A DNA stretch of 64,000 nt from Minisyncoccota bacterium (GTDB lineage: Bacteria; Patescibacteriota; Minisyncoccia; Minisyncoccales; Minisyncoccaceae), in the NCBI GenBank assembly GCA_041651955.1, contig JBAZIG010000001.1, positions 9,594 through 73,593 on the forward strand, written 5' to 3'. Shown one piece after another: positions 54,948-58,069 of this stretch (position 1 is its first letter; every line of letters starts with the position of its first letter). The notes under the pieces are model-generated. The model searched no databases and had not been told where the DNA came from. It was given only the letters and a program-made list of their open reading frames with translations. Position numbers and translations under genes: made by a program.

Positions 54948-54970
54948 AATTTTAAGGTGATTTGTCAAAA

Positions 54971-54999
54971 TTGACAGGATCTTTTTAGGAATGTAAAAT
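54971..54999 (+). promoter_or_regulatory. candidate promoter of nrdD (leaderless geometry)
   Basis: Consensus TTGACA (54971-54976), 17 nt, TAAAAT (54994-54999), 7 nt, ATG 55007. The -35 is the right arm of the inverted repeat TGTCAA-aa-TTGACA (54963-54976). Confidence 0.5.
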
Positions 55000-55006
55000 G
55001 ATTAGT

Positions 55007-57127
55007 ATGACAACAAAAAACCACATTACTAAAGTTCAAAAAAGAAACGGAGATATTGTAGAATTTGTACCAGATAAGATTTTCAGTGCCGTTTTTAAAG
55101 CAATTACTGCAACCAAGCAAGGTAATGGCAAAAAAACTCAACACATTTCAGATTGTGTTATAAAAATTCTTAATAGAAGGTTTAAAAAAGATGAAATTCC
55201 TAACGTTGAACAAATCCAGGATATCGTAGAAGAAGTTTTAATTTTAGAAGGAGAAGCAATTGCAGCAAAGGGATTCATATTATACAGAGAACAAAGAAGA
55301 ATAATTAGAGAATCGCAACTAACTGCCGAAGAAGCAGTTGATAGAGTAGATGATTATCTAGACAAGCTTGATTGGGAGGTTCAGGAGAATTCAAATATGA
55401 CTTTTTCTTTGCAGGGGCTTAATCATTATGGTGTTTCCTATATCGTAAAAAAGTATTGGTTAAATAAAGTTTATCCTGCCGAAGTAAGAGAAGCAAACCA
55501 ATCAGGAGATATTCATTTACACAACCTAGACACTCTTGCATGCTACTGTGTTGGTTGGGATTTATATGATTTATTGCTAAAAGGTTTTGGTGGCGTTAAT
55601 GGTAAAATTGAATCATCTCCACCCAAGCATTTTAGATCAGCCCTAGGACAAGTAGTTAACTTTATGTATACTCTTCAGGGAGAAGCAGCTGGTGCAGTTT
55701 CATTCTCTAATTTTGATACCCTTTTAGCTCCATTTATTCGCTATGATAATTTAAGTTATCCTCAGGTTGAACAAGCAATACAAGAATTTTTGTATAATAT
55801 GGCTGTTCCTACAAGGGTGGGCTTCCAATGTCCTTTTACAAATGTGACACTGGATTTAAAACCAGCATCTACTTTTGCTAATCAAAGTGTTATAGTTGGT
55901 GGCATTCCTCAAAAAGAAACATATTCTGAATTTGAAGAAGAAATGAAAATGCTTGATAAGGCCTTTTATACGTCAATGATCAAAGGAGATAAAACAGGAA
56001 GACCATTTTCTTTCCCAATCCCTACAATAAACATTACACCTGATTTTCCATGGGAAGATCCAGCATTAGATCCATTATTTGAGGCATCAGCAAAATACGG
56101 GATAAATTATTTTGCCAATTATGTTAATTCTGATATGAAGCCAGAGGATGCTCGTTCAATGTGTTGTCGTTTGCGACTAGATATGACTCAATTAGCGAAT
56201 AGGGGTGGTGGTGGGTTATTTGGCTCTGGATCTTTAACTGGAAGTATTGGAGTAGTGACAATTAATTTGCCAAGAATAGGTTATTTATCTAAAACAAAAA
56301 AAGAATTTTTTGAAAGATTAGAAAAAATGATGGATATTGCTAAAGAAAGTCTAGAGATTAAAAGAAAAACCATTGAAGAGTTTACCTCTAAAGGTCTTTA
56401 TCCTTATTCTAAGCACTATTTATCAGGAGTTAAAAAGGCGAAGGGGCAATATTTTGCAAACCATTTTTCTACAATTGGAATTTGCGGAATGAATGAAGCG
56501 CTGCTTAATTTTATGGGAGAGGATATTGGCTCAAAGAAAGGAAGGACTTTTACATTAGAGGTGATGAACTTTATGAGAGACATTCTTATAAAATATCAAA
56601 ACGAGACAAAGAATATATATAATCTAGAGGCCACTCCTGCTGAATCAACATCTTATAGATTTGCTCAAAAAGATAGAAAACTTTATCCCGACATCATTGC
56701 CTTGGGAACTAAAAAGGTTCCATATTATACCAACTCAACTCAATTACCAGTAAATTATACAGATGATATTTTTGAAGAAGTTAAACTTCAAGACGAAATA
56801 CAATGTAAATATACTGGTGGAACCGTAGAGCATATTTTTATCGGAGAAGAAATATCGGACATTGAATCAGTTAAATCATTAGTAAGAAGAATTTTTGAAA
56901 AGAATAGATTGCCTTATATTACAATTACTCCAACATTTTCAATTTGTCCTACTCATGGCTATATTGCTGGAAAACACTTTAATTGTCCTAAGTGTGCGAT
57001 TGAACAACCATGCGAAGTTTATTCCAGAGTAGTGGGATATTTAAGGCCAGTTTCTCAATGGAACGAGGGCAAACAACAAGAATTTAAAGACAGGAAAGAG
57101 TTCAAGAAGTCATTATTTAAAAAATAA
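55007..57127 (+). CDS. nrdD: anaerobic ribonucleoside-triphosphate reductase (class III, NrdD) with N-terminal ATP-cone
   Basis: ATP-cone (VQKRNGDIVEF), NrdD core blocks (CCRLRLD), C-terminal Cys/His cluster and glycyl-radical loop YSRVVGYLRP. ATG 55007 is preferred over the track start 54998, which overlaps the -10. Confidence 0.95.
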   Translation: MTTKNHITKVQKRNGDIVEFVPDKIFSAVFKAITATKQGNGKKTQHISDCVIKILNRRFKKDEIPNVEQIQDIVEEVLILEGEAIAAKGFILYREQRRIIRESQLTAEEAVDRVDDYLDKLDWEVQENSNMTFSLQGLNHYGVSYIVKKYWLNKVYPAEVREANQSGDIHLHNLDTLACYCVGWDLYDLLLKGFGGVNGKIESSPPKHFRSALGQVVNFMYTLQGEAAGAVSFSNFDTLLAPFIRYDNLSYPQVEQAIQEFLYNMAVPTRVGFQCPFTNVTLDLKPASTFANQSVIVGGIPQKETYSEFEEEMKMLDKAFYTSMIKGDKTGRPFSFPIPTINITPDFPWEDPALDPLFEASAKYGINYFANYVNSDMKPEDARSMCCRLRLDMTQLANRGGGGLFGSGSLTGSIGVVTINLPRIGYLSKTKKEFFERLEKMMDIAKESLEIKRKTIEEFTSKGLYPYSKHYLSGVKKAKGQYFANHFSTIGICGMNEALLNFMGEDIGSKKGRTFTLEVMNFMRDILIKYQNETKNIYNLEATPAESTSYRFAQKDRKLYPDIIALGTKKVPYYTNSTQLPVNYTDDIFEEVKLQDEIQCKYTGGTVEHIFIGEEISDIESVKSLVRRIFEKNRLPYITITPTFSICPTHGYIAGKHFNCPKCAIEQPCEVYSRVVGYLRPVSQWNEGKQQEFKDRKEFKKSLFKK
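57017..57097 (+). repeat. direct repeat copy 1 (81 nt, the nrdD 3' end encoding the glycyl-radical loop)
   Basis: 77/81 identical to 57297-57377. Codon-aligned in both genes. Confidence 0.9.
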
Positions 57128-57131
57128 AACT

Positions 57132-57392
57132 ATGAATTGTCATGATTGCAACAAAGAAATAATATTTGATGGCGAAGAAATAAAAAATGGAAAGTTATTA
57201 AAATACTCTTTACCTAACGGAGAAGAAAAGATGATTTACAAATGCAATGATTGTTTTTCTAAAGATCAAAGTTTGAGAAATTATCAAGAGACAGAGGTTT
57301 ATTCCAGAGTAGTAGGATATTTAAGGCCAGTTTCTCAATGGAATGAAGGCAAACAAAAAGAATTTAAAGACAGGAAAACCTTTAATATATGA
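57132..57392 (+). CDS. 86-aa zinc-ribbon protein carrying a copy of the NrdD glycyl-radical C-terminal loop
   Basis: CHDC...CNDC knuckles, then EVYSRVVGYLRPVSQWNEGKQKEFKDRK (26/27 identical to the NrdD C-terminus). It lies 4 nt after the nrdD stop and has an ATGA overlap with nrdG. Confidence 0.7.
   Translation: MNCHDCNKEIIFDGEEIKNGKLLKYSLPNGEEKMIYKCNDCFSKDQSLRNYQETEVYSRVVGYLRPVSQWNEGKQKEFKDRKTFNI
57297..57377 (+). repeat. direct repeat copy 2 (81 nt)
   Basis: Four mismatches to copy 1: GTG/GTA, AAC/AAT, GAG/GAA (all synonymous) and CAA/AAA (Q/K). Confidence 0.9.
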
Positions 57393-58069
57393 AAATCGGG
57401 GGACTACAAAAAGTAACCTTAATAGATTATCCGGGCAAGGTTGCTTGCACGGTTTTTCTTTCTGGGTGTAATTTTAGATGTCCTTTTTGTTATTCTCCAG
57501 AGCTTGTTTTGCCCGAAGAAATTAAAAAACATCCCACTATTTCCGAAAAAGATTTCTTTTATTTTTTGTCAGAAAAAAAGGGTTTATTAGACGCTTGCGT
57601 TATATGTGGAGGAGAGCCAACGATACACGGAAAAGAGTTAGTTGATTTTTGTAAGAGAATAAAAGAGATGGGTTTTTTAATAAAATTGGATACTAATGGA
57701 AGTAATCCCGATATTTTAAAAAAGGTTATTCCCTTTATTGATTATATTGCAATGGATATTAAGTCACCCTTAGATGAAAGATATAAGATCTTTTCTAGCA
57801 TTGATTGTTTAGACAAAATTAAGGAATCAATACAAATAATTAAAAACTCTAATCTTGATTATGAATTTAGAACGACCATTACAAGCCACTCAATAGATGA
57901 CATTTTAAAAATAGCAGAATACATTAGTCCTGCTAAAAAGTATTTTTTGCAAAGATTTGTTAGTGAAAAAGAAAACATTTCAGGAGAAAGTTATTTTACA
58001 AAAGAAGAAGATTTAGAAATAATAAGGGATAGAATAAAAAACCTTTTTGAAATTTTTGAAATAAGATAA
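57389..58069 (+). CDS. nrdG: anaerobic ribonucleotide reductase activating protein (radical SAM, NrdG)
   Basis: CNFRCPFC cluster motif, GGEPT, and the position downstream of nrdD. Confidence 0.9.
   Translation: MKIGGLQKVTLIDYPGKVACTVFLSGCNFRCPFCYSPELVLPEEIKKHPTISEKDFFYFLSEKKGLLDACVICGGEPTIHGKELVDFCKRIKEMGFLIKLDTNGSNPDILKKVIPFIDYIAMDIKSPLDERYKIFSSIDCLDKIKESIQIIKNSNLDYEFRTTITSHSIDDILKIAEYISPAKKYFLQRFVSEKENISGESYFTKEEDLEIIRDRIKNLFEIFEIR

What the first reader, a model, noticed from the sequence alone, without database searches (positions are those of the whole stretch)
57132..57392. Stand-alone zinc-ribbon plus glycyl-radical-loop miniprotein between nrdD and nrdG: a candidate GrcA-like spare part for a class III ribonucleotide reductase
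Seen: an 86-codon ORF starts 4 nt after the nrdD stop and overlaps nrdG by ATGA, so all three are almost certainly co-expressed. Its last 27 residues (EVYSRVVGYLRPVSQWNEGKQKEFKDRK) match the NrdD C-terminus at 26/27 positions, including the RVVGY glycine loop. Its first ~55 residues are unrelated in sequence to NrdD. They carry two CxxC knuckles (CHDC, CNDC) placed like the metal site that precedes the glycine loop in NrdD. At DNA level the shared part is 81 nt with 4 mismatches, 3 of them synonymous. That argues for selection on both copies rather than a decaying duplicate. Established: class III RNR stores its radical on this C-terminal glycine, NrdG installs it, and oxygen cleaves the chain at that glycine. 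For pyruvate formate-lyase, E. coli carries GrcA/YfiD, a small autonomous glycyl-radical domain that substitutes for the oxygen-cleaved C-terminus. Inference: this is the same repair logic applied to an anaerobic RNR. Alternatively it could be a decoy or buffer substrate that titrates NrdG. I do not know of a described GrcA equivalent for NrdD.
Basis: partly seen in the sequence, partly recalled or inferred. Interest (0 to 1): 0.85.

Follow-up and report, generated by a model that had tools for sequence, protein, structure and literature searches.

The report
Stand-alone glycyl-radical module for anaerobic RNR
Between the genes for the oxygen-sensitive anaerobic ribonucleotide reductase and its activating enzyme lies a conserved 86-residue protein that copies only the reductase's radical-carrying tail; comparative genomics indicates it works as a detachable, replaceable radical module, which would be the first such "spare part" for any glycyl radical enzyme other than pyruvate formate-lyase.

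Summary
An 86-codon ORF (57132-57392) lies 4 nt after nrdD and overlaps nrdG by ATGA. Its C-terminal half repeats the NrdD glycyl-radical loop: 84 nt, 5 mismatches, 4 of them synonymous.

It is not a stray duplicate. It belongs to an unnamed family of about 80-135-aa proteins: 767 clusters at 90% identity, with four invariant Cys and an invariant Gly. The zinc-ribbon half is under purifying selection.

Relatives show three contexts:
- A: full NrdD, mini, NrdG, as in this window.
- B: an NrdD whose own glycine loop has decayed while its catalytic body stays conserved. The mini is then the only radical loop. This arose at least three times.
- C: the mini unlinked from nrdDG. In Patescibacteria it sits in PerR / rubrerythrin / superoxide reductase / SOD / hemerythrin clusters (8 of 9 loci, against 0 of 53 controls).

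Bacteriophage contigs and the archaeal virus ANMV-1 carry the mini without NrdD nearby, as T4 carries Y06I. Gene conversion keeps the mini's loop matched to its own nrdD.

Best reading: an autonomous NrdD-type radical domain, activated by NrdG, that docks into NrdD lacking a working tail. Here it would be a backup, probably after oxygen cleavage. Reviews from 2021 and 2026 state that no spare part is known outside PFL. No biochemistry exists yet.

The parts
54963..54999 (+). Candidate promoter of the nrdD-mini-nrdG operon: palindrome TGTCAA-AA-TTGACA (54963-54976) overlapping the -35 TTGACA (54971), a 17-nt spacer, and -10 TAAAAT (54994-54999)
   Evidence: Best promoter-like site in the region, 11 of 12 matches. 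The palindrome is conserved upstream of nrdD in L087 (M. archaeiphilus), L001, L002 and L055, with a variant in L003. Function not tested.
54998..57127 (+). nrdD, class III ribonucleotide reductase catalytic subunit (ATP-cone plus NRDD barrel plus its own C-terminal glycyl-radical domain). The true start is possibly ATG 55007.
   Evidence: Pfam NRDD 1.6e-193 and ATP-cone 1e-16. NCBIfam NF006126 at 1028 bits. Invariant Cys 184, 389, 390, 650, 663, 666.
56930..57124 (+). NrdD cis glycyl-radical domain: metal site C650-x2-H653...C663-x2-C666, radical Gly680 (57035-57037), C-terminal tail
   Evidence: Domain definition by analogy to P. copri NrdD residues 676-739 (PMC11226230).
57014..57097 (+). 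Direct-repeat copy 1 (nrdD 3' end, encodes EVYSRVVGY...KDRK)
   Evidence: 84 nt, 94% identical to copy 2.
57132..57392 (+). Mini-protein gene (86 aa): autonomous NrdD-type glycyl-radical domain
   Evidence: AlphaFold2 model with mean pLDDT 82.9.
57138..57254 (+). Four-Cys zinc-ribbon of the mini (C3 57138, C6 57147, C38 57243, C41 57252) with a beta-hairpin at residues 20-38
   Evidence: All four Cys are invariant in 29- and 93-sequence alignments. dN/dS is 0.05-0.23 in close pairs. Strands 20-26 and 32-38 appear in the models.
57294..57377 (+). Direct-repeat copy 2 (mini glycine loop). The Gly62 codon at 57315-57317 lies between strands 55-58 and 63-66, followed by helix 67-80.
57389..58069 (+). 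nrdG, radical-SAM activase of NrdD (NrdG2 type); its start overlaps the mini stop (ATGA)
   Evidence: NCBIfam TIGR02495 at 1.6e-52, 177.7 bits against a cutoff of 131. Pfam Radical_SAM and Fer4_12.

Best explanation
The ORF encodes a free-standing copy of the NrdD glycyl-radical domain. It comprises a four-Cys metal ribbon, a beta-finger carrying the radical glycine (G62), and a C-terminal helix.

It is co-transcribed and probably translationally coupled with nrdD and nrdG. NrdG is inferred to abstract the C-alpha hydrogen of G62, as it does for NrdD G680. The activated mini is then inferred to insert its glycine finger into the barrel of an NrdD protomer that lacks a usable tail, where it regenerates the thiyl radical needed for ribonucleotide reduction.

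In this genome NrdD still has its own intact tail. The mini is therefore a redundant, cheap, replaceable radical cartridge. Its most likely use is to put NrdD back to work after oxygen has cleaved the chain at G680, which is the logic of GrcA/YfiD for pyruvate formate-lyase.

Shown here: the family, its homology to the NrdD tail, selection on it, the naturally split enzymes, the oxidative-stress and viral contexts, gene conversion with nrdD, and transcription of a relative.

Inferred: activation by NrdG, docking, and rescue.
For: (1) The family is real and under selection.
- 767 clusters at 90% identity; the best 120 are all 76-132 aa.
- In the library clustered at 50% identity, 523 representatives reach E<=1e-10. 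Of the best 150, 149 are 42-159 aa.
- C3, D5, C6, G20, C38, C41 and G62 are invariant.
- The zinc-ribbon half has dN/dS 0.05-0.23 in close pairs, while orthologues are saturated at synonymous sites.

(2) It is homologous to the NrdD tail from the second metal knuckle to the C-terminus.

(3) There is a natural complementation experiment.
- In 8 species genomes (L019, L028, L037, L038, L040, L044, L048, L049) the NrdD ORF stops just after CPxC, with decayed remnants such as EVFLKVGEEE.
- In the seven of these that aligned, NrdD keeps 219-234 of 236 invariant body columns and all six invariant Cys, but only 0-2 of 17 tail columns.
- The mini holds the only glycine loop found in six frames of those loci.
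- These NrdDs fall in at least three separate clades.

(4) There is a link to oxygen. Unlinked Patescibacteria copies abut PerR-like Fur, rubrerythrin, desulfoferrodoxin, Fe/Mn SOD or hemerythrin genes. This holds in 8 of 9 loci against 0 of 53 nrdD-linked or control loci, Fisher p = 3e-9.

(5) Viruses carry it without NrdD or NrdG nearby. L097 has it between head genes, L112 between tail genes, and L123 next to RuvC and SbcC. The 38.5-kb ANMV-1 record has it as its only RNR-related gene. This parallels T4 Y06I (PMC8683613).

(6) There is concerted evolution. In 10 of 15 genomes the mini's 90-nt loop segment is closest to, or tied for closest to, its own nrdD.
- Cognate pairs share 76.7 of 90 nt against 63.4 for non-cognate pairs, permutation p = 5e-5.
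- The fraction of identical codons is 0.69 against 0.48 expected from local codon usage, Wilcoxon p = 0.004. In the window it is 22 of 27 against 0.56 expected, p = 0.005.

(7) The NrdD glycyl-radical domain is a mobile, rigid-body module that leaves the barrel (PMC11226230).

(8) A 279-bp homologue, PMX_810_sub_00056, has the highest expression values among its listed neighbours in an anaerobic enrichment metatranscriptome (PMC10936435 supplement).

(9) Synteny is the same in the cultured Minisyncoccus archaeiphilus.
Against: - There is no biochemical evidence anywhere that NrdG activates the mini or that it binds NrdD.
- In this genome the cis tail is fully conserved, so the mini is not required for basal activity.
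- Oxygen-cleaved NrdD and the naturally truncated NrdDs keep their own metal ribbon. Two ribbons must therefore be accommodated, and no complex model could be computed.
- Foldseek searches with the isolated models found no NrdD, and a profile search of PDB sequences found nothing at E<=0.01.
- The organisms concerned are obligate anaerobes (PMC12281837).
- The window itself has no oxidative-stress genes.
- I could not check whether the genomes with truncated NrdD hold a second, intact nrdD elsewhere.
- All relatives but one are metagenome-assembled genomes.
Confidence: 0.7

Rival explanations
1. The mini is a constitutive exchangeable radical subunit, not a repair part. It would be the routine, preferred NrdG substrate, because a small free domain is easier to activate than a buried one. 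It would serve NrdD protomers whose own tail is out of the barrel, whether or not there is damage.
For: Class-B genomes use it as the apparent obligate radical subunit. A homologue is highly transcribed under anoxic culture. In P. copri NrdD only one protomer has an ordered glycyl-radical domain at a time. In the window the mini is co-transcribed with nrdD and nrdG rather than with stress genes.
Against: The PerR, rubrerythrin, SOR and SOD linkage of unlinked copies points to oxidative stress. The cis tail is perfectly conserved in class-A genomes, so NrdD there does not depend on the mini. YfiD and Y06I are also reported as constitutively produced, so constitutive expression does not separate the two readings.
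Confidence: 0.2
2. The mini is a decoy, buffer or negative regulator. It would titrate NrdG or plug the NrdD barrel to limit radical load, or act as a sacrificial radical sink under oxygen.
For: It has the same recognition motif as NrdD and is co-expressed with NrdG.
Against: A decoy cannot explain lineages in which the mini holds the only glycine loop beside an otherwise conserved NrdD. It also does not explain why viruses that need dNTPs would carry it alone.
Confidence: 0.05
3. The mini is an oxidative-stress redox protein. Its Cys4 site would act like a rubredoxin, donating electrons to rubrerythrin or SOR, with the NrdD-like tail incidental.
For: Unlinked copies lie next to rubrerythrin and desulfoferrodoxin, which are partners of rubredoxins in other anaerobes (my own knowledge).
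Against: The glycine loop is the most conserved part of every family member. There was no rubredoxin hit in Pfam at E<=1. The nrdD-nrdG linkage and the gene conversion with nrdD are left unexplained.
Confidence: 0.03
4. The mini is a functionless partial duplicate of the nrdD 3' end, kept similar by gene conversion, or a gene-calling artefact.
For: Gene conversion is demonstrable.
Against: The non-duplicated zinc-ribbon half is conserved across phyla with dN/dS well below 1. The family is present in hundreds of lineages and in viruses. A homologue is transcribed.
Confidence: 0.02

Closest known systems
GrcA/YfiD of E. coli and Y06I of phage T4 (autonomous glycyl radical cofactors, spare parts for pyruvate formate-lyase)
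   Same: It is a small stand-alone protein whose C-terminal part copies the radical domain of a large glycyl radical enzyme. It relies on that enzyme's activase (inferred here). It is carried by viruses as well as cells. Its proposed use is to replace an oxygen-cleaved tail.
   Different: It derives from NrdD, not PFL, and has no match to Pfam Gly_radical or any GrcA model. Its N-terminal half is a folded four-Cys ribbon, whereas YfiD's N-terminal half is disordered. It is usually encoded between its enzyme and activase. In some lineages it has become the only radical domain. Gene conversion keeps it matched to its partner.
C-terminal glycyl-radical domain of NrdD itself (Pfam PF13597 C-terminus; P. 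copri residues 676-739, T4 NrdD)
   Same: It has the same order of elements (metal site, buried glycine finger, C-terminal helix or tail) and near-identical loop sequence.
   Different: It is a separate polypeptide. Its first knuckle is CxDC rather than CPxH, and 31 residues rather than about 9 separate the two knuckles. It also has a 9-residue insert before EVYSR.
Split class II RNR NrdJa/NrdJb (Pseudomonas aeruginosa)
   Same: It is a precedent for an RNR whose C-terminal zinc-finger-containing module is a separate gene product (PMC9669993). This resembles the class-B arrangement found here.
   Different: NrdJb carries no radical. Here the detached piece is the radical site itself, and in the window both the cis and trans copies coexist.
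Class I RNR beta subunit (NrdB/NrdF)
   Same: Conceptually, both are a separate subunit that stores the radical for the catalytic subunit.
   Different: The fold is unrelated (ferritin-like, metal-tyrosyl) and radical transfer is long-range. The mini would instead insert directly next to the catalytic cysteine.

Membership tests
GrcA/YfiD autonomous glycyl radical cofactor (InterPro IPR011140; Pfam PF01228 Gly_radical) | Sequence match to the Gly_radical/GrcA profile | tested here: not met
   Pfam at E<=1 returns only NRDD plus two noise hits. NCBIfam at E<=1 returns only sub-threshold NrdD models plus two unrelated weak hits.
GrcA/YfiD autonomous glycyl radical cofactor (InterPro IPR011140; Pfam PF01228 Gly_radical) | Small stand-alone protein ending in a glycyl-radical motif (RVxG[FWY]) that copies the partner enzyme's C-terminus | tested here: met
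   86 aa; RVVGY at residues 59-63; 27 of 28 residues identical to NrdD 671-698.
GrcA/YfiD autonomous glycyl radical cofactor (InterPro IPR011140; Pfam PF01228 Gly_radical) | Disordered N-terminal half | tested here: not met
   The N-terminal half is predicted to be a folded Cys4 beta-ribbon; all 10-residue pLDDT block means are 77-88. It has four invariant Cys.
GrcA/YfiD autonomous glycyl radical cofactor (InterPro IPR011140; Pfam PF01228 Gly_radical) | Radical installed by the partner's activase | not testable with these tools
   Only genomic linkage to nrdG is available.
GrcA/YfiD autonomous glycyl radical cofactor (InterPro IPR011140; Pfam PF01228 Gly_radical) | Restores activity to the enzyme lacking its own radical tail | tested here: inconclusive
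The indirect support is strong: at least three lineages keep a conserved NrdD body with no glycine loop, plus the mini.
NrdD, class III RNR catalytic subunit (TIGR02487 / NF006126 / PF13597) | Full ten-stranded barrel with catalytic cysteines, scoring above the family cutoff | tested here: not met
   The mini scores 43.3 bits against a cutoff of 326 (TIGR02487), and only profile positions 540-580 match.
NrdD, class III RNR catalytic subunit (TIGR02487 / NF006126 / PF13597) | C-terminal metal site plus glycine loop | tested here: met
   hhalign probability 99.9%, E 5e-32, to NrdD C-termini. Pfam NRDD profile positions 518-562 match.
Rubredoxin-type electron carriers | Match to a rubredoxin profile | tested here: not met
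   No rubredoxin family appears at E<=1 in Pfam.

The most novel reading that the evidence does not exclude
Class III ribonucleotide reductase in many Patescibacteria, in some Thermodesulfobacteriota, and in their viruses would be a two-component enzyme with a diffusible, disposable radical cartridge. The 80-kDa catalytic barrel is kept. A roughly 10-kDa glycyl-radical module is made, charged by NrdG, plugged in, sacrificed to oxygen and replaced. Lineages that have discarded the cis tail depend on it entirely. Viruses bring their own cartridge to keep the host enzyme making dNTPs.
Probability: 0.5. Interest if true: 0.92.

Novelty: new variant of a known kind. Interest (0 to 1): 0.88.

Why it matters
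Glycyl radical enzymes are destroyed by oxygen through chain cleavage at the radical glycine. The only known remedy is GrcA/YfiD for pyruvate formate-lyase. [quoted passage not shown]

This family supplies a concrete, widespread candidate for the enzyme that makes DNA precursors in anaerobes. It comes with ready-made natural controls: split enzymes, cis-plus-trans enzymes, and mini-less relatives. It also comes with a cultured host, Minisyncoccus archaeiphilus.

It would show that the radical domain of an RNR can work in trans. It would help explain how ultra-small anaerobes tolerate oxygen pulses at low protein cost. It would add a new auxiliary gene class to viruses of anaerobes. Finally, it corrects hundreds of database entries that call these roughly 90-aa proteins 'anaerobic ribonucleoside-triphosphate reductase' or 'hypothetical'.

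Tried and rejected
- Foldseek of the isolated AlphaFold2 models against the PDB (pLDDT 72 and 83) gave only weak zinc-ribbon ribosomal-protein hits (E > 0.3) and no NrdD. A free 86-aa extended module cannot reproduce the conformation it would have inside the barrel, so I do not count this as evidence against.
- A profile search of PDB sequences with the family alignment found nothing at E<=0.01. Solved NrdDs are distant: the window NrdD matches them at only E 1e-35 to 1e-37.
- A complex prediction (NrdD without its tail plus the mini) could not be run.
- Intein or trans-splicing origin: rejected. The mini has no intein motifs, although several related NrdDs carry inteins.
- Assembly artefact: rejected.
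- Mobile-element target duplication: rejected. Only 280 bp separate the repeats and there are no element genes.
- My first NrdD tree picked the wrong ORFs for L036, L044 and L086. Those three branches were ignored.
- Four literature searches for an RNR spare part or a split NrdD found nothing.

Full report
**1. Observation**

The window (31% G+C) carries nrdD (54998-57127), an 86-codon ORF (57132-57392) and nrdG (57389-58069) on the + strand. A 4-nt gap separates nrdD from the ORF, and the ORF overlaps nrdG by ATGA.

An 84-nt direct repeat (57014-57097 and 57294-57377) is 94% identical. Four of its five mismatches are synonymous.

- NrdD is a complete ATP-cone plus NRDD protein.
- NrdG is an NrdG2-type radical-SAM activase.
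- The mini matches only the last ~45 positions of the NRDD profile (E 6.9e-13), far below any NrdD family cutoff.

The whole 64-kb window holds only these two glycine loops. The best promoter-like site in the region lies just upstream of nrdD, and the scan found no terminator-like site between the three genes. The identical mini is called on 11 contigs from independent assemblies.

**2. A conserved, unnamed family**

A search of 5.8 billion proteins returned 767 clusters. The best 120 are all 76-132 aa and mostly come from Patescibacteria. They include MNSN_06970 of the cultured Minisyncoccus archaeiphilus. Their annotations are either 'hypothetical' or 'anaerobic ribonucleoside-triphosphate reductase'.

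A profile search of 1.84 billion 50%-identity representatives gave 523 hits at E<=1e-10. Of the best 150, 149 are 42-159 aa.

C3, D5, C6, G20, C38, C41, G62 and most of EVYSRVVGYLRPVxQWNxGK are invariant. No Pfam or NCBIfam model is specific for the family.

Profile-profile comparison shows homology to NrdD C-termini from the second knuckle (KCxxC aligned with CPxC) to the end. The mini has a 9-residue insert before EVYSR.

AlphaFold2 with 93 sequences gave mean pLDDT 82.9. The model has a beta-hairpin ribbon (strands 20-26 and 32-38), strands 55-58 and 63-66 flanking G62, and a helix at 67-80. This is the order of elements described for the NrdD glycyl-radical domain: zinc site, buried glycine loop, C-terminal helix and tail (PMC11226230).

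**3. Selection and concerted evolution**

The zinc-ribbon half has no counterpart in nrdD to convert against. It shows dN/dS of 0.05-0.23 in the closest pairs. Between the window and its nearest relatives, dN is 0.09-0.3 while synonymous sites are saturated.

The loop-encoding 90 nt behaves differently.
- In 10 of 15 genomes it is closest to, or tied for closest to, that genome's own nrdD 3' end rather than to another mini. In L002 the match is 89 of 90 nt.
- Cognate pairs share 76.7 of 90 nt against 63.4 for non-cognate pairs (permutation p = 5e-5).
- Identical-codon usage at shared amino acids is 0.69 against 0.48 expected from local codon usage (p = 0.004). In the window it is 22 of 27 against 0.56 expected (p = 0.005).

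So recurrent gene conversion keeps the two loops matched. Where conversion is not visible (L016, L017, L032, L033, L043, and the three unlinked Desulfobacterales pairs), the amino-acid sequence is still 22-27 of 30 identical. Selection therefore acts as well. Either route keeps the mini fitted to the same socket and the same activase.

**4. Genomic contexts in relatives**

The contexts come from GTDB species genomes.

*Class A: nrdD with its own loop, then the mini, then nrdG.* This is the window, 14 species genomes, L055 (where nrdD carries a frameshift), and M. archaeiphilus. The last shares the synteny ftsA-ftsZ-nrdD-mini-nrdG-rhomboid-comEC.

*Class B: eight genomes in which the NrdD ORF ends shortly after CPxC.* The tails are decayed, in-frame remnants such as 'EQKTEVFLKVGEEE...' and 'STVYLKVVMAD*'.
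- In the seven that aligned, NrdD retains 219-234 of 236 columns invariant in other NrdDs and all six invariant Cys, but only 0-2 of 17 tail columns.
- The mini's glycine loop is the only one found in six frames of these loci.
- These NrdDs fall in at least three clades interspersed with class A and with mini-less relatives.

Loss of the cis tail is thus tolerated repeatedly when the mini is present. This is the best available evidence that the mini works in trans. The truncation point is also close to where oxygen would cut.

*Class C: the mini has no nrdD or nrdG within 5 kb.*
- In Thermodesulfobacteriota the mini is 118-135 aa with an N-terminal extension. Three of these MAGs have a canonical intact nrdDG on another contig (L014/L060, L018/L078, L030/L062).
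- In Patescibacteria, 8 of 9 loci place the mini directly after a PerR-like Fur-family gene and/or before rubrerythrin, desulfoferrodoxin, Fe/Mn SOD or hemerythrin. The corresponding count is 0 of 53 among nrdD-linked and control loci (Fisher p = 3e-9). The queries for that count were taken from these same loci, and the genomes are not fully independent.

**5. Viruses**

Thirty-odd IMG/VR contigs carry a full mini without NrdD or NrdG within 5 kb. PHROGs confirms phage context in three of them:
- L097: portal, head morphogenesis, mini, major head protein.
- L112: tail tube, PmgB-like protein, mini, tape measure protein.
- L123: RuvC-like and SbcC-like genes.

In GenBank, the archaeal virus ANMV-1 (KP703175.1, 38.5 kb) encodes a 144-aa member annotated 'anaerobic ribonucleoside triphosphate reductase'. 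No NrdD or NrdG is annotated in that record. ANME-1 hosts have an NrdD with the same conserved tail (L057). This mirrors phage T4, which encodes the PFL spare part Y06I (PMC8683613).

**6. Expression**

The evidence comes from the supplementary table of a Patescibacteria/methanogen metatranscriptome (PMC10936435). A 279-bp 'hypothetical protein' whose only Pfam hit is PF13597 (PMX_810_sub_00056) is an unlinked copy. It has values of 13.65 and 14.25 at days 14 and 31. The neighbouring genes shown have values of 0-10.8. I did not establish the units or the gene's genome-wide rank.

**7. Mechanism**

Shown here:
- The mini is a complete NrdD-type radical module.
- It is maintained by selection.
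- It is matched to its partner.
- It is encoded with the activase.
- In several lineages it is the only glycine loop found beside a conserved NrdD body.
- It is linked to oxidative-stress genes when it is unlinked from nrdDG.
- It is carried alone by viruses.

Established elsewhere:
- Oxygen cleaves glycyl radical enzymes at the radical glycine.
- YfiD, charged by PFL-AE, replaces the lost PFL domain without further trimming.
- The NrdD glycyl-radical domain is a mobile rigid body, ordered in only one protomer at a time.

Inferred: NrdG charges G62. The mini then docks into an NrdD whose tail is missing or cleaved and re-establishes the Gly-to-Cys radical relay.

In this window the cis tail is intact, so the mini is a backup. 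I give about 0.85 to 'trans-acting radical domain for NrdD' and about 0.55 to 'used specifically after oxygen damage in this organism'. The stated overall confidence of 0.7 reflects both.

The main rival is a constitutive exchangeable subunit (0.2). Decoy, rubredoxin-like and neutral-duplicate readings fit the data poorly.

**8. Comparison and novelty**

The mini works like GrcA/YfiD and Y06I, but it is not a member of that family. It has no Gly_radical or GrcA profile match. Its N-terminal half is a folded Cys4 ribbon rather than a disordered region, and it originates from NrdD. The class-B arrangement resembles the split class II NrdJa/NrdJb, except that here the detached piece is the radical site.

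The 2021 JBC paper and the June 2026 review both state that spare parts are validated only for PFL and that their existence for other glycyl radical enzymes is open. My literature searches found no description of this family.

I classify it as a new variant of a known kind, of high interest. It makes a stated open question directly testable, and natural controls and a cultured organism are available.

Noticed in passing
Loci L016, L017, L023, L033, L034, L038, L039, L041, L043, L048, L004, L008, L010, L012 (C-termini of the mini proteins): 14 of 50 genome-derived minis (and 12 of the 120 top database hits) end in a Cys-rich tail (...CC, CVC, CGC, CASC). The tail is absent from the cognate NrdD tails and from the window's mini. 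It recalls the C-terminal redox cysteine pairs of class I and II RNRs; its function is unknown.
   Followed up: partly
window 54963-54999: A perfect palindrome TGTCAA-AA-TTGACA overlaps the -35 box of the best promoter-like site upstream of nrdD. It is conserved in M. archaeiphilus and four other Minisyncoccales loci, so it is a candidate operator. The -10 box ends at 54999, so the nrdD start is probably ATG 55007 (706 aa, as JGI calls it), with a leaderless or very short leader.
   Followed up: partly
L085 1-3995; L019 1350-4940; L064; L066: NrdD genes of close relatives are interrupted by large in-frame insertions. L085 encodes a 1424-aa NrdD with Intein_splicing and LAGLIDADG Pfam hits. L019 has two insertions. 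The window's NrdD has none.
   Followed up: no
L170 5857-6291 (KP703175.1 25525-25959): The archaeal virus ANMV-1, known for its diversity-generating retroelement, encodes a 144-aa family member mis-sized as 'anaerobic ribonucleoside triphosphate reductase'. It is the only RNR-related gene annotated in the 38.5-kb record.
   Followed up: partly
L013-L015, L018, L020-L027, L030, L031, L042, L045-L047, L097, L105, L112, L170: A longer subfamily (118-146 aa) in Thermodesulfobacteriota and viruses has a conserved N-terminal extension (...ERLHELFDE...W(E/V)G.CHDC) and a longer ribbon insert (...GG(S/A)VY...). Its neighbourhoods are variable, and one locus (L035) has rubrerythrin nearby.
   Followed up: no
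L055 2845-4945: The nrdD of this MAG is split into two frames (residues 4-619 and 617-703). It is either an assembly frameshift or a recent pseudogene; the mini and nrdG are intact.
   Followed up: no
L054, L070, L074, L079: Patescibacteria nrdD-nrdG loci that nest among mini-bearing relatives but have no mini between the genes. The mini has therefore been lost or gained repeatedly. These loci are natural negative controls.
   Followed up: partly
L123 (IMG/VR contig from metagenome 3300014204): A 101-kb phage contig from the same JGI metagenome that contains a contig (Ga0172381_10000167) encoding the identical mini. It carries a Moranbacteria-type mini next to RuvC-like and SbcC-like genes, and may be a phage of Patescibacteria.
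   Followed up: no
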